Below, one piece after another: positions 5,180-35,015 of a DNA stretch of 44,221 nucleotides. The notes under the pieces are model-generated. The model saw only the letters and a list, made by a program, of their open reading frames with translations. It was not told the DNA's origin and searched no databases. This DNA comes from Psammoneis japonica. Lineage: Eukaryota. How positions within the stretch are numbered: position 1 is the stretch's first letter; every line of letters begins with the position of its first letter. The DNA is taken from assembly GCA_008632985.1 (NCBI GenBank), contig QPGO01000044.1, positions 496,001 to 540,221 of the forward strand. Direction: 5' to 3'. Both the position numbers and the translations under genes were made by a program.

Positions 5180-5829
5180 GTTTCAATGTACTGTACTGCC
5201 GGTTTCTTGTATTATAGTGACGGCATATGCCGTGAGTGTAAGAAAACGCAAAGACAATGGTCGTTGGGTCGTTATTGTCGTTACGATACTCGAGTTTGGA
5301 ATAGAGAAAACGAAAAGATGAGAGCAAAATCAGACGTGGCTCCGTGTGCTTTCTCCTGGAAATGAAAATTATTAACTTCTGATTCATTCGACTCGGGTAG
5401 GGATCGATCAGATTTGTGGGTGTTCGCCTTCATGACGCTTTGTCAAGCACGAAATTGCGTGATTCATTTCTTGGAACCTCTACGTATTGCTCCCTCTAGA
5501 AAAGAAGAAGAGGCAGTGCATTCAGCGCTTGTCTATTAGCGGCGTCGCATTGTCGTTGTTGTCAACAACGCATCGACGCATTATCACACATCAAAAAAAA
5601 AAAAGAGAAGCGAAAAAAGCGCGGAATCGTCATCGCTGATTGACTTTTCTATTTATATTAGACACTGTAGAACCGGATAGACACTCTAATATTGCCCTGC
5701 GGTAATGTGAATTTGTCCAAGTCTTGTCGTCCTCTCCGGCCTCACACAAACACATCACAAGTAAGAGCGGCAACATATATCTGTTGCATTATTAATAACT
5801 TTTACTCCACCAACAGCAACTTGAATATA

Positions 5830-7891: not shown

Positions 7892-9240
7892 CAGTCCTAT
7901 CAGTTTGTGTATGGTAGTGAGGATCGGGGCGAAAACGCAACAGCGACTCCAGATGCTCTACCAGGGGAAGCTGTTGCGGGGGACGACTGAAAAAACCGTC
8001 TTTCTCTGCCGCAAAGCTGTGGAGCGCTTGATTCCTTATGTCGTTCTTTTCTTGAAGCAGGGAGAACAGCAGGCTTATAGCCTCCCCACAGGTTTGCCAT
8101 CGTACCCGATTCGTGCAAACGCATAGGCCCATTAACCAGGACGAGCATTGGCAACGGCTAGAAACTGTTGGGCGTGAGCTACCCCTCCTCTTTCATTTCT
8201 ATCGATTGCCTCTATGATTGGAATATCACAGTATTTGTTTGCGAAGTTCAAATCTGCCCCTGCTCAATCAGCACGCGTGAGAAGTTCACGGAAGAGAAGC
8301 GGTACAAGGAACGTTCTGAAACGCTACGAGAAGACTACGTTCCCGTCAAGACTTTAGCACTAAGATCCAAACTCTTCGCTTGAGAATATTTCGATAAACT
8401 GGGCAAGGATGCTGCAATGTGATAGATCTCGAAACTAGATAAAGCTAAAAGAGAGTTATACACTACACATCCGACAAACCAAATTTGTCCTTCAAAAGCG
8501 AAACCAGCCAAAGCCTAACGGGTTCTTCATTCTGTGTCGGTTGTTTAAGTCAGTAGTCGTCGCCGTGGATGCACCGGTACTATCAACCGCAACGACAGCA
8601 GCATCGCTTGTTGTCCCATCGCCTCCAGTGTTTCCACCAGCATTGTTTCCATCGTCCCGGTCCGTAGTCAACTCCGACCGAATCGAGGTGCTATCGCCGG
8701 AATCACCAATGTTGACGGGGATCAATAAAGAAGTACGACGCTCGTTGATGAGAGACCTCATGTCTTACCATTGGGCTTGAGGAAGTTGAATGAGGCACTC
8801 CAAAACAACATCATCGGGGGGGTGGGGGGGGTCCACGGATGAGGCACGGTAAAAGGAGCAAAAGTTTTGATTTCAGAGGTCAGCTCCACATGAATCTGGC
8901 AGCCACATGCTCCCTTTCCTGCAAAAAGCACTGCCCCAAACTTGTTTGTGTGAGCTGCTGTGAGTGAGTGAGCGGCAGTCATGTCTGTCTCAAATCAAGC
9001 AGCCATTTTGATGACAGCTTCCCAGCCCATGCTTGTTTGCCAAATCGTCCAAGCCAAACATTGGTGGGGGCGGGTGCCTGGCTGGTGCTTGGGCTGTGTC
9101 TTTTTGTCACATTGGGTCAACAGGAACCCAGTGACATGGGACAGGCTCATGGTTGTCCCAAATGATGGCTGAGATGCGTGATTCTGTCTGACCGTTCATT
9201 CTTTCGTGGATTGTCCCACTCATCCATCATGCCACCAATG

Positions 9241-9506
9241 CCCAAACTTCCATTGCATCATGCCACACTTTCAATGCAGTCATTTTGGCATTGTGCTCTG
9301 CACTCATTCTGCATGAAATTTGTGCAGAAAAAAGATCCAATCTTGTGGGTGGTGTGAGCCGATCAACTCTCCAACAACAAAAGAAAAATTCTTCTCACCA
9401 CCATGTGCTCTCTTGGGCCATTTGTCTTGCCGGTTGTTGAGCAGCTGCATCACATGGCAACAGCAGCAAAATTGCATTGGCATCTCTGTCCACAGCTGCT
9501 AGATTG
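9241..9506 (+). pseudogene. Degenerate copy of acnB promoter, 5'UTR and start of the transit peptide
   Basis: Aligns by eye to about 25325-25575 (aaacttcc..gcactttcaa..gaaaaaagatccaatcttg..ccatg..cagcaaaa) with TA/CG replaced by TG/CA. Confidence 0.8.
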
Positions 9507-10264
9507 TTGTCTCTCAACATGGCTCTTCTGCTGGCAGCACTTGCTGTGACTGCTTGGACAAGCCAGAGATGGATGCAAGAATTTTGGTTTGGAGCAATTG
9601 AGAACAATGATGTTCAGGGGAGGCCCTGGGGCAGCCAGACAGATGGCCCAGAAACTGTGGGTTGACATGGCAAAGGGGGAAAACAGGCAAATTGAGCATT
9701 GTTGAAGCAGCAAGAGGAGGCGCGGCAGACTCGGATTGGGCCGGGAGTTGGAGGCACAACTTCTGGTTGAGGGAAGAGCACCAATGACTTGGGCAAGAAC
9801 TGGACTTTGGTGGAGGTAGAAAGATTGTGGTGGGAGGCATCACGGGAAGCTCCGTTGAAAAAGTTTGCAAGATCAAGGAGGACCAAAGCCTTGGAAAGGG
9901 CAGGTGCGCATCACAGGGACACAGGTCGCTGCCCCACAAGGGACAGACCATGAATGTGTGGGACAGACAGGCCACTCCGCAGGATTTCATGTGTGGCACG
10001 CGCACTTGTGTTGTGCAATTGTGCACCCACACTGCCGGCACCTCAGCCTCTGTTGGTTTTCAGTGATGGTTGAGCATTGAGCTCATCACATGTTGTGTGT
10101 GAGATGTGGCTCATGTGTGTGTGTTCTTTCCATTGCGGTGACACCCACCCACCACACGGCATCACTGTGCCATCATCGCATGAGCGCGATCTTCCCACAG
10201 CTTGCGCATCCTTGACAAGGCCCTCTCTCTGCTGGAGAGCACAAGCACTAAAAAGTCAGACAGT

Positions 10265-12717
10265 CATGGCAATGATCCCCTCTTCCAGAGCCATGGTCAC
10301 ACCAGTTTTCAGGACTGGATGGTGCCGTGAACGCTCGAGTTGCGATGATCGTTGCAGCTGCATGCGCGCCAATTACAAGCAGAATTGTCAAAGTTGCCAA
10401 AGATGGATCTGATCAGGACATTGCATCATGCACACATCTGCAGGCTGGGTGCACACTCGTTGTCTTGGCGAGGAAAATCAAGGACTTCCTGCCATTCAAA
10501 GGGACTCAACCCATGGATCCGAAGTGACATGATCAAGGATGGTCGTCCTTCTGCCAAACATTGGCTCAAATTTGATGGGGAAGACAAGGAAGACAGTGTT
10601 GACCCTCCCCACAAGTGGTCATGTGCGCATGGTGAAATCAGGAAGCAGAAGGCGCACGCTGTGGTCCTGGGCCCACTGGCGAGCAAAAAGCCATTCTGGA
10701 CTGTGAACCAACACCCGGAGAAAGTCCAATTTGTGTGAATGCGCCAGCTGGCTGCAGAAAAACAACAACCATTGCCATGCTGTGCAACCATTTGCATGAC
10801 ATGCATGGTGACTTTCAAATCCTTTACCTGGTCTTCGGGAAGAAGACTCAACCAACGCCATGGAATCCAATGAATTCCCGAAGGCACAAATGGAAATTCG
10901 TGCCACGCACGCTTTTGCTCTTTGACACCATTTCGGAGTGCAAAATGTGCACTCCTTCAAACCACCAGAAGATCATGCTCTGGACGACATCATTGAGAGT
11001 GTCGAATTGGAAGAAGACATGAAGGCTGTGTTTCCAGAAGTCTCTTGTAAAAGTCGGAAGTTTACAAAGATGGTGAACTCCGCCGCGCCCTGCATTCCTA
11101 AAACGGTTCACAACTTTCACGCGTCAGCAGACATGGAGCTTTCAGATGAACATGTCCATTGGAGGGCCTGGAAGCAGACTTATCTTCAAAAAAGCAGGAA
11201 GTGGAGGGAAATGATTCCTGTCCACAAGTGCGTTAATTGGGCCACCAAACATTTCGGCTTGATTCGGGAACGATGCAACTGCGTCAGAGAGGGCAGGGGG
11301 AGCAGGAACATGCGTGTTTCGCATGATGGACATCTCAAGGTGGCACAGATGGAGTGTGACATGACTCATGAATTTGATGTTGTTGTTGTGTGATGAAGCA
11401 CAAGATGTGACACCTTGTCAGGCAGACATGTTTTGGGGTGATGACGCTTGGCAAGAATGAATCATGTGCTTGTTTGGTGATCCTCGCCAACAATTGCATC
11501 GATTTCAAGGAGCGAGCACATCATTCAACAGAGTGCACAAATCTGCACCTAATCAATTCAAGCTAATGGGTTCCTTTCAATTTGGGGAGGCAATTGCTGA
11601 GGCTGCATCATTGGTGCTTCAAGCGGTTGATGGCAAGAAATTGGTGGGGCGGGCGACAGACCCTGGTGAGCTGCATCAAGCGGCTGATTTTGACAACAAT
11701 GGAGTTGTCCTTTGTTGCACAAATGAAGGACTTTGTCAGCACCTGTTCTTCAATCAAGCGACAAAGTGGCGCCATTTAGATGGGAGGAAAAAGGTGTTCC
11801 CTGAGCCTCCAAAGTGGGTGAATTTGCTGGAAGATTTTCTCAAGATTGTCAACGCAGATGATGACGACAACAGCAGTGAATGCCAGAGATTCAAGGCACT
11901 TTCTGTTGATCAAGAAGAATTGGACCAAGGACCAGAAGCAAGCTTTCAACACTGAGGCAAAACATTTGGTGTGCTGGGCTCTGTCAAAGAGCACATTGAA
12001 GATGAAGGGGACACTGAACTGTTCAAGTGCCTCAACTTGCTTCTCTTTCTTCAGGCACAGAATCTATCTCTCAATGAGTTCATCAAAAGAATGGAGTGCT
12101 CTTTTGTCCCAATGGCAAATGGAATGGATCCAAATGTGCACAAGGGCATGGCACTGGGGGCTGTTCACAAAGCCAAGGGACTCGAATTTGATCGGGTCCA
12201 TTCATCCGACGACTTTCTGTTAGACTCAATTCTTGTGGCCACCCTCAGTGCACCACACCTCATTGACAAGGCAAACATCCTTTACGTTGCTGTCACAAGG
12301 GTGAAATCACACCTCTTCCTCAGCAACGAGGCCCGGAATTGTCTGGAGAAGCTGTCGGCAAAGCTCGGTCAACAAAAAATGAGGACAGTGCCCCACCGTT
12401 CAATGAAGGAACAACGTGAAGAATGGAAAGAAAAATGGTCAGTCTTCAAGAGTGCAAAGCCACGCATCTGTCAACTCTCAGACATTCTGTTGCCATCTGA
12501 GAATGAGGATGACCCACTTGCTTTGGACAGCACGATGATGGAGAAGGAGCAGCAACTGCACCTTCGAAATTTGCTGCTCCTGTGCCATCCGGACAAGTTC
12601 CTCCCTGTTTTTGATGACGTTGCAGATGGCTGTCGACAGAGCATCACAGAAAAGCTTCACAGCATTTGTCAGTCTGCCAGAAGTGCTCTGCGCTGTTTGC
12701 AAAGCTCAGATCTGTGA
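10265..12717 (+). pseudogene. Degraded FBH1/UvrD-like SF1 DNA helicase with a C-terminal HPDK (J-domain-like) motif
   Basis: Motifs in order across broken frames: NAPAGCRKTTT (Walker A), ILYLVFGK, HDGHLK, DEAQD, GDPRQQLHRFQGA, SFQFG, VLCCTN, VHKAKGLEFDRV, NILYVAVTR, LCHPDKF; stops and frameshifts; start approximate. Confidence 0.85.
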
Positions 12718-12895
12718 GAGAGAAGCAGCCACTGATTTCCCTCCAGACATCCAGACACAAACAAAAGGCCACGCTTCGTGTTTGCAAAATGTCCAGCCCA
12801 TTTTTGGTTTTGCAAAAGCCTGTGATTGGCTCCGTTTGGCCGATTAAAAAGTCTCTCTTTGCTGTCAAATCAATCTTCATTCGTAACTGCCTGCA

Positions 12896-14261
12896 CTGGA
12901 TTTTTAAAGCTGGTGTGACAGAACTCGCTGTCATGAGGACTGATGATGAAAGTGAGTGTGGCAGTGGCACCATGATGAGTGTGATGCAAATGTCAGCTCT
13001 GGAGTCTTGGCAATCCACCTTGCCAGATTTTTCAGGCCAGTGCACCAAAACTCTGGTCACAAAAAGACCGCCGGCAAAAGTGAATGGCAGTGGCATCATG
13101 TTGGATGCAATGCGAATGTTGACCAGTGCTGATCAATCTTCGCTGGGTGTTGCTCTGCTGGCTAGATTTTTAACTTTTTCCACACCCACGCGGTTTCGCG
13201 CGATTGCCCTGTTTAAACAAAATTTTCAATTGTGAAGAATGCCAACATAAATGCAGCAACAAAACTTTTCCACTCAAATGAGTGCAAATGAATGTGTGCT
13301 GTTTCGACCGTGACAGTTTTGTCTGATGGCATTACAAGCCCCAGGACAGACTTTGGACCCATGTGTTGGACAATTGCGAAGAGATCCGTGCCACACACAC
13401 AACCGGACGACACATCTGAATGGACTGGGGCGGTGGGGTGCAAAAAAGTGACAGACAGACGCACGCATGCTGGGGACGCATGCAGACACCATGGAAGAGT
13501 GACTTTTGGCGACAATTTCCAAAATCTTTGGTCCTGTTCAAAGTTTTGCATTGTGCATGCTGCAGGTTTTGTCAGCAGGGCTGTGCACCCTGCTTCACAA
13601 GTGTCTGAACTGGGTGTCTGTGGGTCGAAATGTGTTGAGCCGAGTCATTCTTCTGAAGCTGCTGACAAAGAGGAAAGGCAACATTTTCCATTCAAATGAC
13701 ACAACACCAGGAAATGTGTGATTAATGTGTGAACAACAATGAAATGGCAATTGCACTTGAGCCAATTAGAGAAAATGCTGGGACAAAAAATTTTGTCCCG
13801 CGGGTGCGGAAAAAGTTAAAGCCAGAGTGTGATGCGACAAAGCTCTTGTCACAAAAAAAAAGCCAAGAAAAGTGAACACTGCAACGGCATTGTCATGGGT
13901 GCGATGTAAATGTTGACTGGTCTTGACACAATCACAGTTCACTCTTCTGTCAACGTCGGTGGGCAGAAGTGCCCAGTGTGGGTGCTGATCAATTTTTGTT
14001 CAGCATCACCCTGCTGGCTGGATTTTTAAAACTGGAGCACAGCATGGCTTGCTGTCACAAAAAGACCGCCAACAAAAGTCAGTTGAGAGTGTGTTGCAGC
14101 AATGGCATCATGATGTGGATGCAACTGACAAAAAATTGACTGGTCTTAAGACAGCCACAGCTCACTCTGCTCTCTCTGGACTGCCAGCATGACAAAACTC
14201 GCTGTCACAAAGTGCGCCGCAGATGAAAGTGGGTGGCAATGGCATCATGACAGAGATGCAA
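12896..14261 (+). repeat. Dispersed degenerate repeat of about 70 bp, about 5 copies
   Basis: Core (g)ctgtcacaaaaagaccgcc..aaaagtg..gcartggcatcatg..gatgcaa at about 12921, 13051, 13841, 14051 and 14194; ctggatttttaaa at about 12896 and 14018. Confidence 0.65.
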
Positions 14262-14269
14262 CATGAGCC

Positions 14270-15830
14270 CCAGAAAGTCTCATTCAAAGAAACAGAGAGT
14301 GTGCTGGAGACTCAAGTCTTGACCCCACTTGCCAAGAAGGAGAAACAACCAAAGAGCATGAGCAAGAAGGTGTGCTGCAATTGCACCTTGATGTCCACTT
14401 GCCAAACTCTTGCTTGCTTGTGCTGCAATCACAACCCCGCCATGCAGATCTTGTGCTTGTTTTGCCAAGTGCAAGGACAAGGAAGGGCTCCCAACTTTTG
14501 TGGTGCTTCAAGCAATGGGAGTTTGGGTGAGAAATCATGGAAACTTCAGACCTCCCTGGAAACCAGCCCATTTCAGCCAAAAATGTGTCAACTTTGCACC
14601 GACGCCCCTGACGGTGCTGATGAAGAAGAAAAAGTCGGCCAACCCCAAAACCAACAATGAAAACAACACCACACCCAATGACCAAGCAACAAGTGTTGAC
14701 CAGAGGAGAGATGGCAAGGTGCTCAACACTGCCTCAAGGGAAAGAGAGCAGCCAGAGGATGAGGAGGGAGAAATTTTGTGTCATCACAGGAGAATGACTT
14801 TGTGTCATCACAGGAGAATGACCCCAACATTGCACCCAATGGCTTCAAGTTGGGTGCCAAACAAGTCATTTGTGAGGAGCACGCCAAAGCACAACCTGAG
14901 CAATGACACTCCTCATCTCGGTGGCGGAATGTCAGATGACCATTCTTGGCAAGAGCACCAGTGCAGGCCAGTGCCCCAGCACCCATTGCAACAACATGGC
15001 ACACCAAACAGATCTGCTAGAAAACAATTCATTGCAATGTTGGCAGAGTCACTTTGCAGGGTCAAGATGTGAAAATGAAGCTCAGAGAGGCTTTCAGTGC
15101 ACCAGACAGTATTTTGCAATGGGCTCACAAAGCAGGGGGAGCACAAGACATCAGGGCCCATGCTTGTTGGGCTCCTCACAGATGATGGGACACTGACAAA
15201 CACAAAATTCCAGTCAAATCTACAGAATGGCTGCTTGCAAGCAATCTCAAATCCACTGAGAGGAGCAAAATGCCAAGTTGTGTGCCAAGACATTCAACAG
15301 AGTGGCTCCTCAAGGTGGCCCAAGGGTGCAGTCAGGTGTGTTGCTGAGCTCAAAAAAGGTGGAATGCTTCCACCCACCAGATGATTTTGACACAAAGACA
15401 AAGAGGGCACTGCATTTGAAGTCTTGGAACCCAAACATCCCAGCACAAGAGCTCCAGAAAAATGCTTGCTTAACAAGTGCAGTGAGTCACCCAAGCTTCA
15501 AGATGTCATTGTCACAGACAGCACTGTGGAGATTCTTGTTGCAAGAGGACAACTGTCCAGCAGCTCAGAACTTGGCAGATTTGACATCAACGCAGTGTCA
15601 AAGTGGCTTCTCTGTCACAGAGAGCCAGCAGGGCCAGTGGGTTGCTTGGGGAGGCACCACGCATTGTGGCAGCAAGCCATGGTCAAAGCCATTCTCCTGG
15701 TTTCTGAAGCAGAAGCCAAAGAAGTGCACAACACAGACCAGTCATGTGCTTGATTGGCAGCAGGCATCAAAAGCAGTGCTCACAATGTGACTTGCTCTGG
15801 GAACAACACTTGGCTGACTCTGTCATGCCA
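14270..15830 (+). mobile_element. Relic of a CRE-clade non-LTR retrotransposon (5' Cys-rich region plus start of the RT region, internally deleted)
   Basis: Cys cluster CCNCT..C..LAC.C; NDTPHLGGGMSDD.SWQ; SSER; GGMLPP; EVLEPKHP; KWLL; GPVG...KAIL..EAKE..DQSCA.LAAGIKSSAH. These match remembered CRE-type consensus blocks (HLxGGIxDDxxWQ, WNSER, SKHP, QLCAGLxAGIEGAxH). Confidence 0.7.
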
Positions 15831-16435
15831 GGGCCAGGGGCAGTGGCAGCCAGCAGCATTGATGGTTCTTCTTTCTTGTTTTGCCTTGATCAATTCATGG
15901 AGCTTTGCAAAATGCCAATCAACACATCAGCAGAGATGCACTGCAGTCCAAAGAGGCTCCAAAAAAGTCCTTAAATGCCTGTTGGTCTTTTCATCTTTTG
16001 GCTTGTCCTTGGATGAAAGGATGCAAGAGGTCAAATTCCAACAACAGGTGTTTCCCCAGCATTTTTCTCTCCAGACTTGACACTGTGGTGCACAGGGCAC
16101 AATGTGTCTGTCTTGTGGCATGCACACCCAATCAGCTGAGACAACACGTGGCATCACTTTCAAATCAATTGGCCATTGTCATGAGAGCAATTCTCAGTCC
16201 CTTTTCCATTGTGCACAGTGAAAAAAAGTGGCACAACCAGTGAAAGATTTCTGTGTGTTTGCACCCACAAATTGCACCAGCCTGACTCCTCTGGTGTGCT
16301 TGAACTGTCATTTTGTCAGAGACCATGCATCATCATGTGCTTGCACCAGGAATGCATGGAACAGGCTGTGGAGTTCCTGTCTGAAAGGGTGAGCTGCCTG
16401 TGCTGTGCGATGTGCCCATCATTTGCGCTGTTGTG

Positions 16436-17825
16436 TGGATTTACAAGCAGCTTCAAGTCACCTGTCTTTTGCATCACATGCAACAGGAGGGACAGGTTTC
16501 TGAGGCTTTCGCCCAAGACAGAACCTCTGGGGTCTCACAACACATGGATTCAACCAAGTGCAGCACTGGCTGGCTTTCTGAGCTTGGTCTCCTGTTCAAT
16601 TGCTTTGTGACAATCAGTCTCTGTTGGGCCAAAGTCTGCCAAGACCAGATCATCATCCTTGCCATCATCTCCCAAGAAGATGGTGGCCATTTTTGCTGAG
16701 GCAGCATTTTGTTGCATTCTTGCAGCACCTTCTGCCAGCAGTGTCTTCAAGTCTGCAATGCATTTTTTTCCATGTTTGTGCAGCTGCTGCACAAAAACAC
16801 TGTTGCAGCACAAAAAATGCAACAACTGCCACTTGGTGACACAATCAGTGCCCAACACAACACCCTCTTGACCCATCCCTGAGGAAGAAGTGAGAGCAAC
16901 CAACTGCAAAAGAAGCTGCCTGCTGTTTCAAGTCTGTGCCCTTCCTGTTGTCAGTTCTGCCAATGTGACAGTGTGGGCAAGCACTGGGTCTTTGGCATCA
17001 GTCACTGCATGACCCATTGACTCCTCAGGACCAACAGCCAGATCAGAAAATCCGTTTGACTTGCGCTTCCCAGCTTTCAGCTCAAAAAGTGAATGATGAT
17101 CCCACCAGATGTCACACATGCCAAAGGAAGCACCCCATTGATCTGCAGCAGCAGCAGCAGTTCTCCTTCAAGAATGCATTTGCAGCCTGGCTGTTTGTCT
17201 GCCCCCCCCCCCCCCCCCCCAGGGTCCATTTGTCCTTCTCCAGCATCTGTGCTTGCCTTGCAGATGAAACAACTTCCAGCCAGAATGTCATCTTCAAGCA
17301 CAGACAAGGTGAAATTGATGGTGGCTTCTGGTGTGGGAAGATCAATGGTGGTGGCCATGTCACTCAACTTTTTTCAATTTGTTCGAGCACATTTGACTCA
17401 CATTGCAGCTGCTGTTGCAGCAAAACTTGAGAGTGCAATGGTGAGCAACAGAGAGCAAACGGGAGACAGTTTCGTCAAGAAGTTGCATTTTGTGGCTGAC
17501 AAACAAAAGTGTGTTTTGCGCGACAGTTGCTGTGAGTTGTTGCAGAGCACGATTGCATTCACAAGCAAGAAGAAAGAAAAAGTGTGATTCTGCCTGCTGC
17601 TGGATGCTTTGCATGCAAGCGCCAAGCCAGGATTTCTGAGCAATGCCCTTGACTCTCAACATTTCTTGTAGAGGAGCTCCTCCATGCCCCAAGAATGTCA
17701 CTCAAGTTCACACCATGCAGCACAATGCCATTTTCTGCCACCGCTGATTCCCGCGCACTGTGCTCTCCCTTGTTTTCCTCGTCCGTCATCATGGCGCCAT
17801 TGCTCTGCGCTGATTGTGGTGGAGC
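16436..17825 (-). pseudogene. Full-length degenerate paralogue of the Crinkler-like gene at 19710-20988
   Basis: Colinear with 19670-21010 including the intron; ETPEVLSWAKASETCPSCCM versus intact ETPEVPSWAKASETCPSYYM; frameshifts. Confidence 0.92.
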
Positions 17826-17899
17826 TCAACACAGCGATGACTCAACCCAATTTCTGCGCCATCGTTTGCATGATTTTCCCATTCATCTTCCCCACCACA

Positions 17900-18563
17900 C
17901 AGCTGCCAAACTTCCATCGCATCATGCTGCACTTTCAATGGCAGCCATTTCTCACTCAGCACTGTCCTCCACACTCATTCTGCACAGAATTGTGCAGAAA
18001 AAAGATGCAGCAGAAAAATCTTGCAGTGCAAGCCAGTCAATTTTCCCACAAAGAAGTTCTCAACCATGATGCTCTCTTGAGCCATTCGTCTTGCGGGTTG
18101 TCTGGCAGTTGCGCTGCATGGCAGTGTCAGCAAAACTGCTTCTGTGGCATCTCTGCCAACTCTTGCTGGATCTTCATCGCCTTTGACTGCTGGTTTGATC
18201 AACACGCTGCAACAACGTCTTGCAGCAGTGACAGCAATTTGCTTGTTCATCTCCACTCTGCATCTCTGACTTGCAATTCTTCTTTGCCGTTTTTGAATTC
18301 TTGTGAAGCAGCGGCATCTCTGTTCATTGTTGCTGGATTGTTGTCATTGCCTCAACTGGTTTGATCAACAACAACACTGCTGCACCACTGCAAACACACT
18401 CTGCTCTTCTAACAGCAATTTGCTTGCTCATTTCTGCTTGTCTGCGCTTGCTCGATCAAGTTTTTCTTTTTCTTCTGCTTTTTTGGATTTCTGCCAAGCC
18501 GCGCAGATGATGAACATTCTCAACTTGCTGGCAACATTGGCGTGGCACCCAAACCACTTGACA
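17900..18563 (+). pseudogene. Two tandem degenerate copies of the acnB 5' region (17900-18310 promoter plus transit peptide; 18310-18563 transit peptide to GVAPKPLD)
   Basis: Align to about 25325-25720 and 25545-25782; e.g. gaacattctcaacttgctggcaacattggcgtggcacccaaaccacttgac versus gaacgttctcagttggcgggtggtgtcggtgtcgcaccgaaaccactcgat. Confidence 0.85.
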
Positions 18564-19709
18564 TTGGCACTGCCATCCCTCCTTGTACTTCCACTGCCCC
18601 CCCCCCCCCCCCCCCCCATCATCGCTGCATTGCCAGCCGCTGTTGATGCAACCATCCCAAAGCTCCTTCTTGCCAGTCTGCCTGCTCCTTTTTCTCCAGC
18701 TCTGGCTGAGGCACATGACACAAGAATGAGGTCAAAGTTTCTTGGCCCCACCACATCTTCTTCTTGTGGCTCCCTTGCCACCCAGTCTCTCAACGATGAT
18801 GGGGTCTTCCTTCTTCCTTTTGCCATCGATCACCTCAGTGGTCTCAGCTTCTTCTTTCACTGCTTCCTTTTTTGTTCCTCCTCCTCTTTGCTCTGCTCCT
18901 AACCCAAGCCTTCTTGGTCTGATTCTTCTGCCCTCCAACACCCTGACGCCCCCCACGCCGCCTTCTGCCATGCTCTCACTTTGCCAGCTTCCCTTTTTCT
19001 GCTGACTTTGCCTGGCACCAACTTGCCACCGACCGCTTTGGCAACTCTTGCCGCTCTTCTACTCCCTCTCAATGGGCCACCCAACACCTTGGATACAATG
19101 TCACCCATCATCTTTCCGCCCACACCCTTCGATTTCTCTCTGTTCATACAGCACCCTCCGCACCGCTTCCTCTCCGCTCCCTTCTTTGAAACGCCCTGCG
19201 CGCGTTCTTGCGCGCCCCTTCTTTGCTCCCGCGCTATCCTGCAGCCAGTTCCGTGCCTCCTTTATGCTGATTTGGCTCTTTAATCAACCCTTTACTTAAA
19301 AAATTGAAAGAGACATGATCGTGTCTGTGCATACGATCCCGGTGCGCCAGCATCAATGACAGGCATGAGCACTCGACTGTGACCGAAGATAATCTTCCAC
19401 AGGTACCGGATTCGATACCGTTGTGCAACAAAAATTGGGAGCTTTCGTGAAAGGATCGGGTTTGGCTGTTGCCCAGTCAATTGGATTTGGTCAACAAGGA
19501 ATAGGGTGTATCGATGTTGATATAATGACATATTTGTTGTACATGATAGGACCTTAGTACCAAATAGCAGAAAAAGGTGTTATTCCAACAAGAAACAAGA
19601 AACACAAAATCACGTGCTTTTCTTTGTTTGTAAAATACTTACAATGTCCATATTCTTAAGAATTCTAATATGGATTTAAAAGCAGTTTCAATGTCACCTG
19701 TCCTTTGCA

Positions 19710-20988
19710 TCACATGTAATAGGAGGGACAGGTTTCTGAGGCTTTCGCCCAAGACGGAACCTCTGGGGTCTCACCATACAAAGCTCCAAGCACACCGGCT
19801 AACTTTCTAAGCTTGGCCTCCCGTTCAATTGCTTTGTCCCGATCAGTCTCTTCTGCGCCAAAGTCTGCCATAACTATATCATCATCCTTGCCATCATCGT
19901 CCAAGATGGCGGCCATTTTTGCCGGAGCAGTATTTTGTTGCATTCTCGCAGTACCTTCCACAAGCAGCATCTTCAAGTCGGCGATACACTTTTTCCCATG
20001 TTTGTACGGCTGCACGAAAACACTGTTGTAGCCCGAAAAATGCAACAACCGCCACTTGGTGACGCAATCAGTACCCAACACAACAACACCTTGACCCATC
20101 CCTGAGACAAAAGAGAGAGCAACCAACTGCAGAAGAAGCTGCCCCTGTTTCAAGTCTGCCCTTCCTGTTTTAAGTTCCACTAATGCGACAGTGTAGGCAA
20201 GCACTAGATCTTTGGCATCAGTCACTGCATAACCCATTGACTCCTCAGGACCAACAGCCAGATCAGAAAAGCCGTTTGACTTGCGCTTCCCAGCTTTCAG
20301 TTCGGGAAGTGAACGATTCCGGACGTCATACATGCCGAAGGAAGCACCATTGATCTCCAGTGGCAGCAATTCTCCTTCAAGAATCCGTTTGCAGCCTGGC
20401 TGTCCATCTGCCTCGTGCTCTTTCTCCCCCCAGGGGTATTCCTCCATCTGTCCTTCTCCAGTGTCTTTGTTTACCTCGCGGACAACAACTTCTATCTTCA
20501 TATCTTCAAGCATAGACGAGGTGAAATTCATGGTGGCTTCTGACATGGGAAGATCAACGGTGGCCATGTCGTTCAACTTCTTTTCAATTCGTTCGAGAGT
20601 ATTTAATTCACCTTGTAGCTGCTGGTGCAGCGAAATTTGAGAATGCGATAGCGAGCGGCACAGAGAGAGCAGACGAGAGATAGTTTTATTAAAAGTTGTC
20701 GTGGTTGACGAACAAAAGCATATATCATGACAGTTGCGAGTTGCTGTAGCACGATCGCATTAGCAAGAAAAAGAAAAAAATACGACTCTCACCTACCTGC
20801 TGCTGCTGGATGTTTTGTATGTAAGCGCGAAGCCGGGATTTCCGAGCGATGCCCTCGACACTCAACATTTCGTAGAGCTCCTCCATGCCCCGAATGTCAT
20901 TCGGGTTCACGCCACGCAACACAACGCCATTTTCTGCCGCCGCTGATTCCCATGCACGCTCCTCCTTTTCCTCTTCCGTTGGTGCCAT
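19710..20988 (-). CDS. Crinkler (CRN)-like protein with a predicted PD-(D/E)XK nuclease-type C-terminal domain, 2 exons
   Basis: Exon 1 MAPTEEE...IQQQQ (20988-20797); GT-AG intron about 20796-20622 in phase 0; exon 2 QLQGELN...GFSDLAV...ALVELKT...QGQLLLQLVALS...VVLGTD...KWRLLHF. Intact frame, normal TA/CG. Family called by motif resemblance. Confidence 0.7.
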
Positions 20989-21399
20989 TGCTCTGCTGAT
21001 TGCTTGGAGAGAGTATGAGAGCCATCCGCACGTTTATCCTAAAATTACCGTGACATTTGAATAAGGTTATTTATTAAATAAGTTTATTTATTAGAGTCTA
21101 TTTTTAAAATACAAAACTTGGACGCTTCGCTGGACGGCTGTCTCGTTGTTTGTCTACTGTAGGTACAGCATTATACCGGTAGGACCTACTAACTCTAGCT
21201 ACTAGTAGAGGGCCCTACTCTAGCTAGAGAGTAGAGTGGCAGCAGCTAGAGTAGAGACTGCACGACATGCAGTTGAGACAAAAATTTGAATTTTCGATGA
21301 TGAACATTGTCACATTGTTTGTCATTCTCAGAGAGAATGATGTCAACAAAGTTCTTGGGCTTTGCTGTTTGTCTGCACCAAAAAGACTTTGAACAATGA

Positions 21400-22060
21400 C
21401 GGTGCTGACTGTCAACGGCTCAATCAACTGTTTTGTCCAACTCAGAGGAACCACCGATTCGAGGGTGGTCCAGCAGTGCATTTGAGCAATTGTTCAAGGA
21501 GGGCCAATGTGAAGAAAATCAACAAGCACACCATTGCATCTGGGCCTGGTGAGACACTGGGCTGGGCCAAAGGAAAATGACATCCTCAGCAATGCAGCCC
21601 ATGTGCTGCTGCCACCAATCTTGTCCGAATTGATGTCAATGGTGGCATTTTCAAGAAGGTGCAGACATGGAACACAATGACTCAAAATCTCTTGCACAGC
21701 CACCTCCCACCCATGCAATTGTGGTCCATGTGTGCAAGCAACCTCAAGTGGAAAAAAGCAGAATGCCAGCACCAGGCATGAGCATGTGGATTTTCAAAAG
21801 ATGAGGCATCCAAGAACACTTTGTTTGCAGCCTGTTTGGATGCCAATGTCAAGCAAGCTGGGAACAAATCAAGGCATGTGGACCCACTTCTCAAGCACTG
21901 CCATGGCTGCCCTCTGATGACAAGCCTCAATGAAGGCATGAAGAAAAGGAGAGGTCAATGGCACTGTTGGCTGTTTTGAAGGAGTTGAGGCAGCTGAAGA
22001 AAGAAGGCGTTTCTTGGATGATTTGGAGAGGTTGAGAATTGATGGTTTCTGGATGGTGTT
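21400..22060 (+). mobile_element. Relic of a Pif1-family helicase (Helitron-like)
   Basis: Broken frames give INCFVQL..NHRF..RANVKKIN and HVDPLLKHCHGCPLMTSLN..NGTVG.FEGV..IDGFW, resembling the Pif1/Helitron motifs HRF and DPxLxLYxGxPxMxxxN...NGT. Confidence 0.55.
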
Positions 22061-22349
22061 GAGGCATAAGAAGAAAGCACAGGGGAGGTCTGTTTCATTT
22101 GGTTCCAAGGAAAGAGATGTGCGCTGTCAACTTTCCTGCCCTGTCCCTGTTGTGGGTTTCTTCATTGACAAGAGAACTCCAAGAATCAGTCAGAGAATGC
22201 AGATGACCCAGCTCCCAGTTTTGTGTGACAACACAACAACTGTGCACAAGAAGCTCCAGGGCAGGGGACAATTGAGAGCCTGGTTGTCAACAACTTCAGC
22301 TGCAGAACAACTGGGTTTGTGTGGTTCTGTCTAGAGTGACAACAAGAAA

Positions 22350-23007
22350 AGGACTTTGCCTTGGGAAGAAGCTTGATGGCAGGAAAATGAAGGAGGGCAT
22401 GTTGTTGGTGTTGAATGAGTTCCTTTGGTTGCTCCAGGTGTGCACAAGAGGGCTCCAAGAAGGCTGCAAGGCTCCTGCTGCAAATGACCATGCAAGGCAC
22501 TGCAGCCAAAGATTGTTGTGTTGTCAAACATTGATTTTTAACAACATGGCAAAACAATCCAGGTTTGTGTTGTGTGGCTGCCCTTGTCAGGCACAGAAAC
22601 AAGGGGGTTGAGTTGTTTGCAAATGACCCCCAGTTTGAAAGTGAGTGTGCATGAAAAAAATGATTCCTGTCCCCACCTGTGCAAAGCCCCCCTTGTCCAT
22701 GCAATGGGTGCACCCTGCTTGACCACCTCGCCAATTCAACCTGTCTGATGAAATCTGTCTTTCCATTTCCCATCAGTTGCCCTCAATTTGAGCTGAAATG
22801 TTGTTCTTCATCAGCAACTGCCTCATTCTCACAAGAAAGGGACTTTGTCTCAGAAAGAAGCTTGATGGCAGGTGAATGAAGGGCATGTCATTGGCGCTGG
22901 GTGAGTTCCTTGGTCACTTCAGCAGATGCACAAGAGGACTCCAACAAAAGGCTCCCAGGCTCCTGCTGCAAATGACCATGCAAGGCACTGCAGCCAAAGA
23001 TTGTTGT
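22350..23007 (+). repeat. Direct repeat pair of about 170 bp (22350-22520 and 22839-23007)
   Basis: Both copies contain gaagcttgatggcagg and the identical stretch ggctcctgctgcaaatgaccatgcaaggcactgcagccaaagattgttgt. Confidence 0.85.
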
Positions 23008-24627
23008 CCATTTGCCACATTCTTGCATTTTGTTTGAATTTCATTTGCAACCTTTGTTGATTTGGTGAGTGTTGTTTGAGTCCCTCTGCTTCTTGCCTCT
23101 GAAGTCACATGTGCTGCGACACAAACCTCTGCCACATGGACATCTCATGTGCTGTCTTTCCAGCAAGTTCCACTTTGCCCTGCCTTCCACCAGTGCATCA
23201 CATGTCTTCTCACCAGCTGATGGTGCTCTGCTGTCTGCAGGTGGAGCAACACTTCTGAGCATTGTCGCCACTTTGCAAGATGACTCTGTCACCTGGCAAG
23301 ATCTCGCTGCTGCACACCATGCCAACTGCCATGCTCTGCAAGACATCCCTGTCCAGCAAGATTTTGCTGCTGCCCCTGTGTCAAGTGACAATCTTCATCA
23401 TTTGCTCCAGAGATCTCTTCGTGGTCGCCCAAGCTTCTCATGGATGGCATCATGCTTGGCAATGCCAGCTGCCCCAACAACAGCAAGGTTGACCTCATGC
23501 ACTGCATTGACAAGAGCAAAAAAAGGGAGTGGTTGTCAAATTTTGCCCTCAGACCTGCCCTCCAGATGATGAAGGTCATCTGCAGAGTCAAAGTGCAATG
23601 TCCAAAATGCTGCTGAAAAGGAAGGCTCCAAGTTGGTCACCAACCAGGGTCACGGCATTTTTGAGTGCCACCATCACAAGGTGCACAAGCCAAAGTGCTC
23701 CAAGTCAAATCCATTGAAGAGAACAAGAAAGAGTTTTTAATGAGTCTTTTCCTCAGCGCCAAACATCAGGCAACTTGTGGCACTGGTCCACGCACATGAC
23801 AAAAAGCCAAGTCATGGTCGTGCATTGCAGAAAGATGGATGGTGTGCCACAACTGCTCTCCCTCTCTGCAGAGATCACCATTGTCATTTCTGACTGACCA
23901 TCAAGTTTTGCAAGTTTGGCAATTTGGAAAATGGCCACACTTCTCTGCTTGTCATCTGGACATGGCTGTTGCAACTGCACACACTGCGCGCACCCTTGGG
24001 AGGGACCACAATTCAACCTGGGCAACAAGCAAGCCATGGCAAAATGTTCACCCATGTTGCTGGAGGAAAACAAAGGACAAAGGGAGTGAGTGGCGAGCAT
24101 CTTGACAATTCCACCTTGAAATGCACGTGCACATTTTGCCATGGATGAAATCTGCTGCATTGGCAGGATCATCAGCCCATTGACTTGGAGAACAGCTGTT
24201 CATGACATGTGTTCTTGGCTTGAGATGCTGCCCTGCTGGAGTCTCTGCTTGCAGCATTTCAACAAATGACAATGGCACACCCCACAAATGACCCAAGTGC
24301 TGCAATGTGCGCGCAAACCATTGCTGTGTCAGATGTTGATGATGAAGCGCAAGCCATGCACATCTGTGGCAGAGTTGTCAAGGTCAAAGGCAGTTGCGTC
24401 ATTCAACCATTGTTTTGGGTGTTCTCTCCCAAACTCTCGTTCCTTCCATCATCCCCAGAGCAGCCCCCACCATGCAATGAGTCAACCCCAATGGAGTCAA
24501 TGTGTTGTTTCAAACACTGCTGATGTCATCCACAAGGAATTCCCAAAGTGTTGCAAAAAGACTGCCCGCCCATCAAAACTTCAGCACTTGCAGGCAATTC
24601 AGGCTCTGGGTTGCACCTCTGGCATGG

Positions 24628-24740
24628 CAAAACTTCCGTCGCATCATGCCGCACTTTCGATGGCAGTCCTTTTGGCATTGTCCGTTGGCACTCCTCATTC
24701 TGCGTGTGAAATCAGTGCAGAAAAAAGATCCAATCTTACA
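24628..24740 (+). pseudogene. Degenerate copy of the acnB promoter fragment
   Basis: caaaacttccgtcgcatcatgccgcactttc...cagaaaaaagatccaatctt matches about 25328-25427. Confidence 0.8.
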
Positions 24741-24747
24741 CAAAACA

Positions 24748-25230
24748 CCATTTGTCCTTTTCTCCAGCATCTGTGTTTGCCTCGCAGACAGCAGGCAACA
24801 ACTTTGTCTTCACATCTTCAAGCACAGACGAGGTGTGAAATTCCTCATGGTGGCTTCTGACATGGGAAGATCAATGGTGTGGTGGCCACGTCGTTCAACT
24901 TCTTTTCAATTTGTTTGAGAGTTTTTAACTCACCTTGCAGCTGCTGGTGCAGCAAAATTTGAGAATGCGACAGCAAGCGGCACAGAGAGAGCAGATGAGA
25001 GACAGTTTGTCAAGCTGACATGGTTGACAAACAAAAGCACATTTCATGACAGTTGCTGCGAGTTGTTCCAGCAAGATCGCACACTTGCTGCTGCTGCTGC
25101 TGGATGCTTTGCATGCAAGTGCCAAGCCGAGATTTCCCAGCATGCCCTCGATCTGTCCTATGCACTCACTGTACGCTCCTCCTTTTTTCCCTCGTCCGTC
25201 GTTGGTGCCATTGCTCTGCGCTGATTGGTG
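24748..25230 (-). pseudogene. 5' fragment of the Crinkler-like gene, head-to-head with intact acnB
   Basis: Aligns to about 20443-21005 with deletions; ATG context gttggtgccattgctctg conserved at about 25201-25218. Confidence 0.88.
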
Positions 25231-25465
25231 GAGCTCTACGCGATGATGATTCGATTCGATTGATTCCTGTTCTGCCTGTCGTTCGCACGACATTCCCGTT
25301 CGTCCGTCACACCACACACACACCGCTCAAACTTCCGTCGCGTCACGCCGCACTTTCAACAAGTCATTCGGCATTGTCTTTCGTACTCATTCTACGCAGA
25401 ATTTGTGTAGAAAAAAGATCCAATCTTGCACGAGCCAATCAATTTTCCCATAAAATTCTTCCACC

Positions 25466-32153: not shown

Positions 32154-33112
32154 TCTTGTTTCCGCGCGTCTACCCAAACCACCCTAATGTTTACACAAGA
32201 AAGGATTGAGACAAAAAAAGTCAGCAACTTAGGACCTTCGTCTGTAGAGCAGCACACACCTCTCACGTTCAAAGTGCTCTTCTGACAACCAATGGAGCCC
32301 GACGCTTTTTCACACTTTTATTTTTGGGCTCTACAGCAGGAAAACCCTCGATTCAAACAACATCTTCTTACCTGCACCCTGGTGGATTCTCAGGATATCG
32401 ATGCTCGCCAAAGTGGAATGACAAAGTTTCTTTCTTGTCGCACCGCAAGATAAGGGATGGTGGTTGGATCTTGTGAGCAACAAAATTGGCCTGGTCGCGG
32501 AATCAAATTTTTATTATGTCGGAACACGATCCAGATTTTTTAATGTAGCCTTCAATGCTGAATACGTTCATGCCCTCAAACGGTTATAAAAATACTCATT
32601 TCCATAGTAATTGTATAAAGCCTCTGTAAAACAGGCAATACTTTTTTAGCTCGTGTGTTGTTCAAGTGGCTCGTGATTTTGGAGAACGAGCACCGCACCT
32701 CGCCAAGGTTGGCGTGTCCGCTTCTCTTTATAACATGCTCACGTCTCTACAAAAGGATTCCTTCATGATGGCATTGTGAATGCTGTAACCCAAACTGTTC
32801 TCCTCATGAGTGAAGAAGAAAGAGCTTTTTTTTGTGGCCTGAGCAAGGAGCAGGAGCCACGCCCTCCTTTTCTTTGCCTGCTTTGACATTTTTTCTGCCT
32901 TTGTCTCTCTGCCACACTGCCTGTGTGTGACTCTGCATGGCCTCTGGTGCTGCTGATGTCACCTTTCTCTGATGGTGTGATGATGGCTCTAGCCTGCCCA
33001 CTCCGACTGCTGGCTTCTTCTTCTCACATGTTGACATGCCCCCGTTTCATCATCACAAGAAATCTTGCTCATTGGAGAGCAACCAGCACCACGCTCTTTG
33101 GCCAACTTGATT

Positions 33113-33672
33113 GTCATTCTTTTTGGCAATTTGCTCCATTGTCTGCAAAGTTCCATGCAAGATTCAGCACAAATTCTGTGCTCTGAAAGTCATCTCGGAT
33201 GGCTGACTTGCCAACAAACTGTCGACTGCTCTCAGCTCATGCCTCACCGGCATCAATGAACCCCCTTCTGTCTGGTGTCAGTTTCAGCTCCCTGCTTCAT
33301 GTGGTGAACAGTCTTCCATCATTGGCACTCCCAGAAGCTTGAACTTGAGACCAACTCAGCATGATTTGGCCTTTTCTTCCATTTGCTTGCATTTCTGCAC
33401 AAGTTTCAGCACAAGCTCTGCATGTCTTGAAGGTCATTTTGGACGATCAACTTGCCAAACTGTCAACTTCTCTCTGCCCACACCTCTCAGGCATTGACAA
33501 CCCCCTTCCACCCATTGTCAGTTCAAGTTCCCCACTTTGTGTTGTGAACAATCTTGGCATGATCCTGCCTTTCTTTGGTTTGCCTGCATTTCCACACAAG
33601 TTTTGCACGTCTTTGAGGACATTTTGGATGATCGACTTGTCAAACTGTCAATTGCTCTCTGCCCAAGCACTT
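33113..33672 (+). repeat. Three degenerate copies of a unit of about 200 bp
   Basis: Recurrent gtcatYtYgga.gat..acttg.caaactgtc.a.t.ctctc at about 33190, 33433 and 33618; gtgaaca.tctt at about 33304 and 33544. Confidence 0.75.
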
Positions 33673-34853
33673 TGATGTTGATGCTTCATTTTGCCATGCA
33701 GCTTTTGCTGATGCCAGCTCTTTCCTGTGGGGCCCATGCTTGTGGCATCAATCTCAGCCAGTTGTCACATGCTCCTGCCGTGCTGCAATGTGCTGGGGGT
33801 GTGGGTCAGCTTGTTTTCTGGAGTCACAGGGCAGAAGCACAACAGCACTTTAAACATGGAATTTTGGTTTTGGATTGCTGCCCACTTTGACAGCTTTGTA
33901 GAGCAAGGCCATGAAATGGTGCTGTCAATCAAAAGTGGAAATGTCACTTTGATGATCTTCAAATTCTCTGCGCACATGCGGTGATGGTGCCAGATGCCTC
34001 CTGAAGAGCTGCGCCTCTGTTGCAAGCTTGTGCCAGAAGCTGCCAGAGTCTGCAACTTTGGCAAAAAAACAGCACTGGGCAAGGATCAGCAACAACAAAT
34101 CAAAAGAGCAATGGAGCATGAGCACGGTGTGGGCCTGATCTCAAAAACAATGCAGCAGGCTGTTCATGAACTTTTGATGCTTTTTCATCATGCACAGCAA
34201 GTGCATGACTGCTGCTGGTGAATGAAATGACCAACTCTCTAGATCTGGCTGGAGCTGCAATTTCTGAAAAAGGTTTCCATGGCATCCATGCCCCCCCACA
34301 CCCTGCTTTTGAACCAGGTGATTTGGCAGTCAAGACTTCCCTCGCCAATTCTTTGCACCCCAGAAAAAGCAGATTGTTGAGCACACTGTTTTCTGCAGCA
34401 TGGTGTCTCATGTCTCCCTTGGCCACACTTGCTTGGCTTTTTTGAGAGGAGACATTGCTTCCTGTGTCATCCACTCCATGAACACTGCATTGTTCTGTGC
34501 TGCAGGTCTCAAGATGAGGATTAAAATCTCCAACCAGGCTGCCAAAACTGCTCATTGGAGCTTGCAAGTTTTGTTGCACAGGCCTGAGAAATCTTGCCAG
34601 TGGAGTGGATGCCACTGCCTGCTGGTGTTGACAAAAGAGCAAATTGTGGTTGTCAAGAGCAGTCAGCATTTCTGTGCCACATCCATCACAATGCCATTGC
34701 TTTTCACTTTTCAGTGGTCTTGTGACACAGCAAGTTTTGTTGCACTGGCTTGAAACATCTGGCCAGTGGAGCAGTGCCAAATGAAGATTGAACAGTGCTT
34801 GTTGGGCACCACCACCGGGTGTTGACAGAAAAGCAAACTTTGATGATTGGCAT

Positions 34854-35015
34854 CAAGACAGAGTCCACATTTGCACTGCATGCATCACAGTGCCTTGCTG
34901 TTCAATTTTTGATTGTCTTGGTGACAGCTGATTGTCAAGACTGAGAGTCAACATTTGCACTGCATTCATGGCAATGCTGTTTCTGTTCACTTTTGAGAGC
35001 AGTCTTGGTGACAGC
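34854..35015 (+). repeat. Tandem duplication of about 85 bp
   Basis: caagac.gagtc.acatttgcactgcat...gtcttggtgacagc occurs twice. Confidence 0.75.

What the first reader, a model, noticed from the sequence alone, without database searches (positions are those of the whole stretch)
12800..16000. Surviving TpA sites fall mostly in YTAR context (TTAA, CTAG, TTAG), which suggests the mutator's sequence preference
Seen: the few TpA left in saturated parts are mostly ttaa (about 12844, 12904, 13170, 13213, 13722, 13816, 14025, 14146, 15971; also 22538, 23737, 33850, 34521, 35376, 37338, 38051) or ctag/ttag (about 9499, 13163, 13766, 15017, 22331, 32988, 34239). GTAC, ATAT, GTAT and ATAC are essentially gone. 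Exceptions exist (ctaa->ctga and ataa->atga in the paralogue pair), so this is a preference. Inference: the favoured target is TAY (RTA on the other strand), reminiscent of the TadA UAC preference. This could discriminate between candidate enzymes.
Basis: partly seen in the sequence, partly recalled or inferred. Interest (0 to 1): 0.75.

Follow-up and report, generated by a model that had tools for sequence, protein, structure and literature searches.

The report
Fingerprint of a diatom TpA mutator
In this diatom's transposon-filled DNA nearly every TA step has been rewritten to TG or CA, about three times faster when T or C follows, and neighbouring A's on the same strand sometimes change with it, as with laboratory adenine base editors, which narrows the search for the unknown natural enzyme.

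Summary
Observation confirmed, rule refined. In 12800-16000, 13 of 19 surviving TpA are YTAR (26% expected; 10 of 16 after dropping three non-independent TTAA, P=0.002). Two listed TTAA are the target-site duplication of a 650-bp piggyBac-like MITE (13170-13819). Rates fitted on 55 retrotransposon copies give, per strand, TAT 1, TAC 0.92, TAG 0.36, TAA 0.33; +2 A and -3 T each halve the rate. This model predicts which sites survive in saturated domains (AUC 0.81). So the target is TAY, but TAA is slowed, not immune, and CTAG is not reliably resistant. Products are 99.3% A>G, strand-symmetric, without AA>AG excess or strand runs. New here: adenines at -2, +1, +2 on the same strand change with the hit TpA (44/1647 against 51/11085 far away; permutation P=2e-4; repeated in the MITE). 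This fits a DNA adenine deaminase with a few-base window (about 0.55) better than Pol iota (gene present; 0.2) or Pol eta. No enzyme is identified. The scan has noted this mutator and its TAY rule on other pieces of this genome; TpA hypermutation is in print for Bigelowiella (2026 preprint), whose main text gives no flanking context.

The parts
8767..19059 (.). TpA-erased domain 1 (41 TA in 10.3 kb, TA o/e 0.06, CG o/e 0.32)
12800..16000 (.). Finding interval: 19 surviving TpA, 13 YTAR, 5 mixed, 1 RTAY; 18 of 19 at or near low predicted rates, GTAT 15110 the exception
13170..13819 (.). 650-bp MITE with 22-nt terminal inverted repeats (TTAA included) and TTAA target-site duplication; 44 genomic matches; 7 TA left against 46-53 in intact copies
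13611..13614 (+). Same-strand cluster: TAAA in intact copies reads TGGG here (target A plus +1 and +2 bystanders)
13273..13762 (.). Further bystander A>G beside hit TpA in the MITE copy (13273, 13282, 13433, 13747, 13762); 8/32 near a same-strand hit against 0/24 near an other-strand hit
12890..14260 (.). Degenerate tandem repeat hosting the MITE; TTAA at 12904, 13170 and 14026 are homologous sites
16436..17816 (-). Erased paralogue: of 39 TA in the intact copy 18 became CA, 13 TG, 2 kept; of 55 CG 42 became CA/TG, 9 kept; 11 short insertions over 900 bases
19671..21002 (-). Intact paralogue in a gene island (ORF 19710-20759, no Pfam match), used as the unmutated state
21253..25383 (.). TpA-erased domain 2 (9 TA), with a third paralogue piece at 24748-25151
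32787..39665 (.). TpA-erased domain 3 (18 TA)

Best explanation
A host mutator acts on chromosomal DNA in sharply bounded domains of transposons and duplicated genes and turns the A of TpA into G on either strand. Its rate depends on flanking bases: best ATAY followed by a base other than A, worst TTTAAA-like sites. Survivors are the slow sites, plus TTAA duplicated by TTAA-targeting transposons. Shown: direction, context rule, purity, strand symmetry, action after insertion, same-strand bystanders. Inferred: the chemistry is adenine deamination (A to inosine, read as G) by a TadA/ADAT- or ADAR-fold enzyme that opens a window of about 5 bases, so that nearby A's on that strand are sometimes hit in the same visit; and targeting is through silent, CpG-methylated chromatin. 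CpG loss in the same domains is a separate, slower process. The context rule itself I put at about 0.9; the confidence given is for the deaminase mechanism.
For: Per-strand rates on 531 TA-origin sites in 55 Copia copies, 95% site-bootstrap intervals: +1 C 0.92 [0.79-1.13], G 0.36 [0.28-0.46], A 0.33 [0.23-0.44] against T; +2 A 0.45; -3 T 0.49; -2 non-A about 0.6; minus strand 0.96 [0.85-1.08]. TAY>TAR holds in each of 4 families. The model ranks survivors among 18,175 domain YR sites with AUC 0.81. Non-coding MITE copies keep RTAY 8/233, mixed 29/409, YTAR 44/171. Purity: 3585 A>G, 15 A>T, 12 A>C. A>G away from TpA: AA 0.0016, CA 0.0014, GA 0.0015 against a hazard of 0.52 per TpA adenine. Bystanders: -2 20/857, +1 18/351, +2 6/439 when the same strand is hit; 5/909, 1/605, 0/476 when the other strand is hit; permutation 44 observed, null 20.9+-3.3, P=2e-4; MITE 24/196 against 6/241. 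TadA-derived editors show YAY>YAR and bystander A edits. No AAG/MPG glycosylase match, which would let inosine persist to replication. Mettrop et al. propose A deamination for the same TpA signature.
Against: No candidate stands out. The deaminase genes found look like the housekeeping set: a TadA-like gene with Asp at the D108-equivalent site, ADAT2 with the usual Asn, two A_deamin genes. CA is not edited, whereas ABE7.10 favours 5' T or C. No link to hairpin loops (rho 0.04 and -0.03, 770 strand-sites), unlike amphioxus ADAT2, which also favours GAA. No strand-coordinated runs, as a deaminase on long single-stranded DNA would leave. The bystander excess did not reach significance in three small sets: families B+C 3/147 against 6/931 (P=0.11), window paralogue pair 4/23 against 1/21, L022/L048 3/40 against 2/54. 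G>A at CpG near hits was also raised (21/583 against 72/4008, P=0.007, one of 24 tests). Sequence cannot tell whether the lesion is on the A or on the paired T. Methylation was not measured.
Confidence: 0.55

Rival explanations
1. Short-patch repair by DNA polymerase iota: something nicks or excises at TpA in silent chromatin, and Pol iota fills 1-4 bases, putting G opposite template T, sometimes at two or three T's.
For: The genome has an intact Pol iota-like gene (best PDB hits human Pol iota E=2e-26, Pol kappa 2e-14; finger motif GQKHII aligned to QQKYLV), with C-terminal segments that I read as UBM- and PIP-like (motif names recalled). Pol iota puts dG opposite dT 3-10 times more often than dA and contributes to tandem mutations (PMC4995076, passages). 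Endo V is present. Transversions at TpA run about 3 times background (15 and 12 among about 11,000 A against 0.0004 and 0.0003).
Against: Fungal Pol iota also puts dT opposite dT more often than dA, yet A>T is 0.4% of A>G. No other substitution class or deletion outside CpG is raised beside hits. It needs a separate TpA-specific trigger. POLI also occurs in Phaeodactylum and Fistulifera, so presence alone says little.
Confidence: 0.2
2. The lesion is on the thymine: an enzyme modifies T in RTA (oxidation to formyluracil, or amination) so that it pairs with G, giving T>C; bystanders are neighbouring T's.
For: All counts read equally as T>C at (R)TA with same-strand neighbours. C5 methyltransferase-fold genes are many (27 matches), and diatom DNMT4 is related to fungal RID with unknown function (PMC9998398, passages).
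Against: No Tet_JBP match in the genome (absence not proven). I know of no DNA enzyme that turns T to C (own knowledge). The genome's methyltransferases were not assigned to families.
Confidence: 0.12
3. Pol eta-type error-prone long-patch mismatch repair (WA>WG), set off by deaminated 5mC.
For: Pol eta genes are present, CpG is lost in the same domains, and TA is a Pol eta hotspot (PMC7884765, passages).
Against: WA includes AA, but AA>AG equals CA and GA rates away from TpA. No strand runs at 30, 100 or more bases. TpA loss runs far ahead of CpG loss: young copies have TA o/e 0.15-0.4 with CG o/e 0.8-1.0.
Confidence: 0.04
4. The survivor pattern is a by-product with no context preference of the mutator: TTAA target-site duplications, tandem repeats, stop-codon-poor baselines and new TA made by other mutations.
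For: Two quoted TTAA are a target-site duplication and three are homologous. TTAA and ATAA exceed the model (69 against 55, 28 against 14).
Against: The same order comes from direct copy-to-copy fates in coding and non-coding families. At mixed sites the TAY strand was the one hit in 224 of 372 cases (P=1e-4).
Confidence: 0.04
5. Editing of element RNA or cDNA before insertion (ADAR-like on RNA, or reverse-transcriptase error).
For: Two A_deamin genes are present; retroelements are main targets.
Against: Both strands are hit equally; a non-coding DNA-transposon MITE and host-gene paralogues are hit; borders fall inside single copies and continue into flanks.
Confidence: 0.02

Closest known systems
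TpA hypermutation of integrated viral DNA in Bigelowiella natans (Mettrop et al., bioRxiv 10.64898/2026.01.13.699255; parts 1-4 of 5 read, supplements not seen)
   Same: TpA>TpG/CpA almost only, both strands, confined to domains of foreign or selfish DNA, uneven among lineages or copies; A deaminase proposed, enzyme unknown.
   Different: Here a diatom, with Copia elements, MITEs and gene duplicates erased to near saturation (TA o/e 0.02-0.11 against 0.45 there) and slower CpG loss alongside. The main text has no occurrence of 'diatom', 'trinucleotide', 'context' or 'flanking'; its Table S2 may hold the context.
TadA-derived adenine base editors (ABE7.10, ABE3.1, ABE8e-YA; PMC12528748, PMC10188366, passages read)
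   Same: A>G of high purity, 5' T favoured, YAY>YAR, bystander edits of nearby A's.
   Different: Engineered and Cas9-guided; they also edit CA. The natural process is strictly TpA, with CA at background, and is faster with A at -2.
Amphioxus ADAT2/3 DNA editing (PMC10354150, passages read)
   Same: Natural A-to-I deamination of DNA by a tRNA editor; needs Asn at the D108-equivalent site, which the diatom ADAT2 has.
   Different: Reported targets are GAA and TCG in hairpin loops; here TAY, no hairpin link, no C editing outside CpG.
Repeat-induced point mutation (RIP) of ascomycetes (search listings and passages in PMC9998398; the CpA rule is recalled)
   Same: Dense transition mutations at one dinucleotide in repeats; diatom DNMT4 groups with RID.
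   Different: Opposite direction: RIP makes TpA from CpA, this removes TpA; G>A at TpG is at background (0.0006).
DNA polymerase iota G:T misinsertion and Pol eta WA mutagenesis
   Same: Both give A>G on the new strand; both genes are present.
   Different: No AA excess, no tracts, almost no A>T.

Membership tests
Bigelowiella-type TpA hypermutation | A>G confined to TpA, both strands | tested here: met
   3585 of 3612 substitutions at one base of TA-origin sites are A>G; non-TpA A>G about 0.0015; strand factor 0.96
Bigelowiella-type TpA hypermutation | Confined to domains of foreign or selfish DNA | tested here: met
   Domains and islands; Copia and MITE copies. Host-like gene duplicates are also hit
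Bigelowiella-type TpA hypermutation | About 1000-fold raised rate per generation, on in some lines only | not testable with these tools
   Needs mutation-accumulation lines; copies differ widely in load
Bigelowiella-type TpA hypermutation | Same enzyme or same flanking context | not testable with these tools
   Enzyme unknown in both; preprint supplements not seen
TadA/ABE-type deaminase | 3' pyrimidine preference (YAY>YAR) | tested here: met
   TAT 1, TAC 0.92, TAG 0.36, TAA 0.33
TadA/ABE-type deaminase | Bystander A>G on the same strand within a few bases | tested here: met
   three small sets not significant
TadA/ABE-type deaminase | 5' C accepted as well as 5' T | tested here: not met
   CA>CG 0.0014, equal to GA
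TadA/ABE-type deaminase | Asn at the D108-equivalent position in a candidate | tested here: inconclusive
   TadA-like L094 has Asp; ADAT2 L097 has Asn, but that residue is conserved in eukaryotic ADAT2
ADAT2/3 DNA editing (amphioxus) | GAA target and hairpin-loop preference | tested here: not met
   GA at background; no correlation with predicted unpairing (a weak test on 32-base windows)
Pol eta mutagenesis | WA hotspots including AA, in patches | tested here: not met
Pol iota mutagenesis | Gene present with conserved finger residues | tested here: met
Pol iota mutagenesis | dT as well as dG opposite template T (A>T by-product) | tested here: not met
   A>T 0.4% of A>G; the diatom enzyme's own fidelity is unknown
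RIP | C>T at CpA raising TpA | tested here: not met
   TpA falls; TG>TA at background
RIP | Needs RID/DNMT4; triggered by repeat pairing | not tested
   27 C5-methyltransferase matches, not assigned
piggyBac-like MITE (13170-13819) | TTAA target-site duplication and terminal inverted repeats | tested here: met
   TIR; right ends read TTAA or its erased form TCAA in 16 of 18 copies with that end
piggyBac-like MITE (13170-13819) | Matching autonomous transposase | tested here: inconclusive
   16 PF13843 matches in the genome; their ends were not compared with the MITE

The most novel reading that the evidence does not exclude
Diatoms, and perhaps other SAR algae, carry a natural chromatin-targeted DNA adenine deaminase that edits chromosomal DNA at TpA with an ABE-like window (TAY preferred, bystanders at -2, +1, +2): an A-to-G counterpart of RIP, shared with Bigelowiella and carried out by an enzyme not yet recognised.
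Probability: 0.5. Interest if true: 0.92.

Novelty: new variant of a known kind. Interest (0 to 1): 0.7.

Why it matters
A>G hypermutation at TpA is so far in print, in the library searched, for one alga and with no enzyme. A measured motif (ATAY best, TTTAAA worst), 99% purity, no AA activity and same-strand bystanders give pass-or-fail criteria for any candidate in a yeast, E. coli or in-vitro assay, and can be checked at once against the Bigelowiella mutation list. A natural DNA adenine editor would be a new form of genome defence and a possible source of base-editing enzymes. For the scan, the context rule is a repeat finding; the bystander signal, the rate table and the MITE confound are the additions.

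Tried and rejected
Literature: ten searches. Those aimed at diatom TpA loss or A>G genome defence listed no paper describing it in diatoms; one search found the Bigelowiella preprint. The library lacks most subscription journals. Other genomes: 0 of 80 related Copia loci from metagenomes have a 1-kb window with TA o/e below 0.2 (lowest 0.29), though many have lost CpG. This is weak, because the peptide seeds contain Tyr codons that the mutator destroys, so erased copies would be missed. No RNA holder listed. Strand runs: none. Hairpin, GC and A-tract predictors of site rate: none significant. A first apparent strand bias (0.80) vanished once context was modelled (0.96). An apparent AA>AG excess in the MITE (35/1043) resolved largely into bystanders. 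An insertion bias in the erased paralogue (11 against 0 in intact copies) was not general: young erased retroelements show none, and two other old pairs gave 9 insertions/11 deletions and 5/6. The looser site set was replaced by the strict one; both gave the same order. Rows left out: 70 of 150 listed RVT_2 loci were fetched; 64 fell into six families; the strict fit used families A, D, E, F (55 copies) and dropped B and C (9 copies, too few per family); columns with gaps or N were dropped. MITE: 30 of 44 matches came as loci; one duplicate intact copy and one split locus were left out. SBS9 was not compared numerically, as no signature table was at hand. UV TA photoproduct and 6mA at ApT were set aside from recall: wrong product, and ApT is little depleted.
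Full report
Setting. The window is the end of contig C46 of a 91.4-Mb genome. Its aconitase B is 78-80% identical to named Seminavis and Odontella proteins, so the organism is taken as a diatom. Gene islands (TA o/e about 0.56, CG about 1.0) alternate with three domains that have lost TpA (o/e 0.03-0.06) and much CpG (0.2-0.3) and gained CpA/TpG. The same two states hold over 150 kb elsewhere. A paralogue pair in the window shows the direction: of 39 TA in the intact copy, 31 became CA or TG and 2 were kept.

The observation. Every quoted site is there. In 12800-16000, 13 of 19 TA are YTAR against 26% expected (P=1e-4). RTAY is nearly gone: GTAC 2, ATAT 0, GTAT 1, ATAC 0 in domains. Outside the window ATAT is 0/783 and TTAA 50/986. 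There are three confounds. A 650-bp MITE sits at 13170-13819, with 22-nt inverted ends, 44 genomic matches and TTAA at both ends, so two quoted TTAA are one duplicated target. Three TTAA are homologous sites of a tandem repeat. Coding islands are poor in TTAA, which inflates domain/island ratios. With three TTAA removed the skew stays (10 of 16, P=0.002; domains P=2e-8).

Direct rates. Survivor counts mix loss, gain and baseline, so I measured fates. Of 150 listed RVT_2 matches, 70 were fetched and 64 formed six families of 94-99% identical copies. Copies differ at single sites in whether TA became TG or CA, and some have borders inside the element, so most hits came after insertion. A competing-risk fit on 531 sites in 55 copies gives per-strand factors: +1 T 1, C 0.92, G 0.36, A 0.33; +2 A 0.45; -2 non-A about 0.6; -3 T 0.49; strand 0.96. 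TAAA is about 0.10 of TATC. Copies share some ancestry, so intervals come from a bootstrap over sites. These rates, fitted on other loci, rank the 273 surviving TA among 18,175 domain YR sites with AUC 0.81; survival falls from 6.6% in the slowest tenth to 0.13% in the fastest quarter. ATAA and TTAA exceed the prediction and CTAG falls short. In 24 erased MITE copies set against intact ones, RTAY was kept 8/233, mixed 29/409, YTAR 44/171, the duplicated TTAA 16/23 and CTAG 0/36. TAY is therefore the target; TAA is slowed about threefold and is close to TAG.

What the signature excludes. A>G away from TpA is flat: AA 0.0016, CA 0.0014, GA 0.0015, against a hazard of 0.52 per TpA adenine. Pol eta's WA rule includes AA, so it is not met. 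Neighbouring hits show no strand runs. Products are 3585 A>G, 15 A>T and 12 A>C. Equal strands and erased MITEs exclude RNA editing before insertion. CpG decay in the same copies is much slower (singleton G>A 0.013 per base, a lower bound), and related elements elsewhere lose CpG without losing TpA.

Same-strand bystanders. Non-TpA adenines next to a hit TpA change with it: ATA>GTG 20/857, TAA>TGG 18/351, +2 6/439. When the other strand was hit the counts are 5/909, 1/605 and 0/476; when TA was kept, 3/424, 1/827 and 1/1268; background is about 0.4%. The 44 events lie at 41 distinct sites, on both strands and in all three families. Shuffling outcomes among copies within each site gives 20.9+-3.3 against 44 (P=2e-4). 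The MITE family repeats it (24/196 against 6/241), as does the copy in the finding interval (8/32 against 0/24, including TAAA>TGGG at 13611-13614). Three small sets point the same way without significance. No other non-CpG change is raised beside hits; G>A at CpG is (P=0.007 among 24 tests). One look-up of the scan's notes for this signal returned nothing.

Mechanism. Pure A>G, a strict 5' T, TAY>TAR and bystanders within about five bases on one strand resemble TadA-derived editors. I infer an adenine deaminase that opens the duplex locally in silent chromatin, with inosine fixed at replication; no AAG/MPG match was found, Endo V was. Diatom transposons are CpG-methylated, but methylation was not measured here. 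Candidates found are ordinary: a TadA-like gene with Asp where DNA-editing variants have Asn (the numbering offset to D108 is my reading), ADAT2 with Asn, two A_deamin genes, and dCMP deaminase, RibD and guanine-deaminase-like genes (the last two labels are my reading). Amphioxus ADAT2 favours GAA and hairpins, which does not fit. The main rival is Pol iota, present and intact: it puts G opposite T and takes part in tandem mutations, but the fungal enzyme also puts T opposite T often, while A>T is 0.4% here. A lesion on the thymine cannot be excluded by sequence; no Tet_JBP match was found.

Comparison. The process works like the TpA hypermutation of Bigelowiella and meets its two testable features; rate and enzyme cannot be tested. 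It is not RIP, whose direction is opposite. It resembles a TadA editor but fails the CA test, so I do not file it as one. Papers seen: the Bigelowiella preprint, parts 1-4 of 5, no supplements; PMC12528748, PMC10188366, PMC9998398, PMC7884765, PMC10354150, PMC3031609, PMC8595933, PMC4995076, PMC10779026 and PMC3979402 as passages only.

Verdict. The pattern is real and reflects the mutator's context preference, in a finer form than YTAR. The scan has already noted the mutator and the TAY rule on other pieces of this genome. Interest 0.7; new variant of a known kind.

Noticed in passing
window 16436-17816: The erased paralogue carries 11 short insertions (many 2-3 base duplications) and 3 deletions over 900 bases where the two intact copies have no insertion. 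Not seen in young erased retroelements or clearly in two other old pairs.
   Followed up: partly
window 13170-13819: piggyBac-like TTAA MITE family with intact and erased copies; intact copies lie mostly in less erased flanks, so erasure follows the neighbourhood.
   Followed up: yes
window 20988-23203: Read depth rises to 180-590 against about 60: another multi-copy repeat in domain 2.
   Followed up: no
window 11956-12717: UvrD-like helicase C-terminal remnant inside domain 1; a host-type gene erased of TpA.
   Followed up: no
window 19710-20759: 349-aa ORF with no Pfam match; the Atlas gives weak likeness to oomycete clusters, one auto-named Crinkler N-terminal (recognition below threshold). 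It has one intact and two erased paralogues.
   Followed up: partly
window 3221-5182: 653-aa ORF with 156-192-nt repeats and one Stc1 domain match. Stc1 links RNAi to heterochromatin in fission yeast (recalled); a related locus lies about 14 kb before the window.
   Followed up: no
window 42375-43964: 529-aa ORF with a weak lipoxygenase match (E=0.0018, below cut-off).
   Followed up: no
L107 (G000:C22:251128-254793): Intact Pol iota-like gene with C-terminal UBM- and PIP-like segments.
   Followed up: partly
L117-L119 (G000:C301, C297) and L101 (C151): Several C5-methyltransferase copies and one deaminase-like copy are themselves TpA-erased (TA o/e 0.02-0.07).
   Followed up: no
window 8800-25400, run X1: Of the 40 best-supported differences (119 not shown), 20 are CG against TG/CA, 2 are TA>TG (12066, 22068) and 1 creates a TA: both processes may still be segregating.
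   Followed up: partly
L040, L050, L057, L060, L071: Single retrotransposon copies with a sharp internal border between erased and untouched parts; useful for mapping how domains spread.
   Followed up: no
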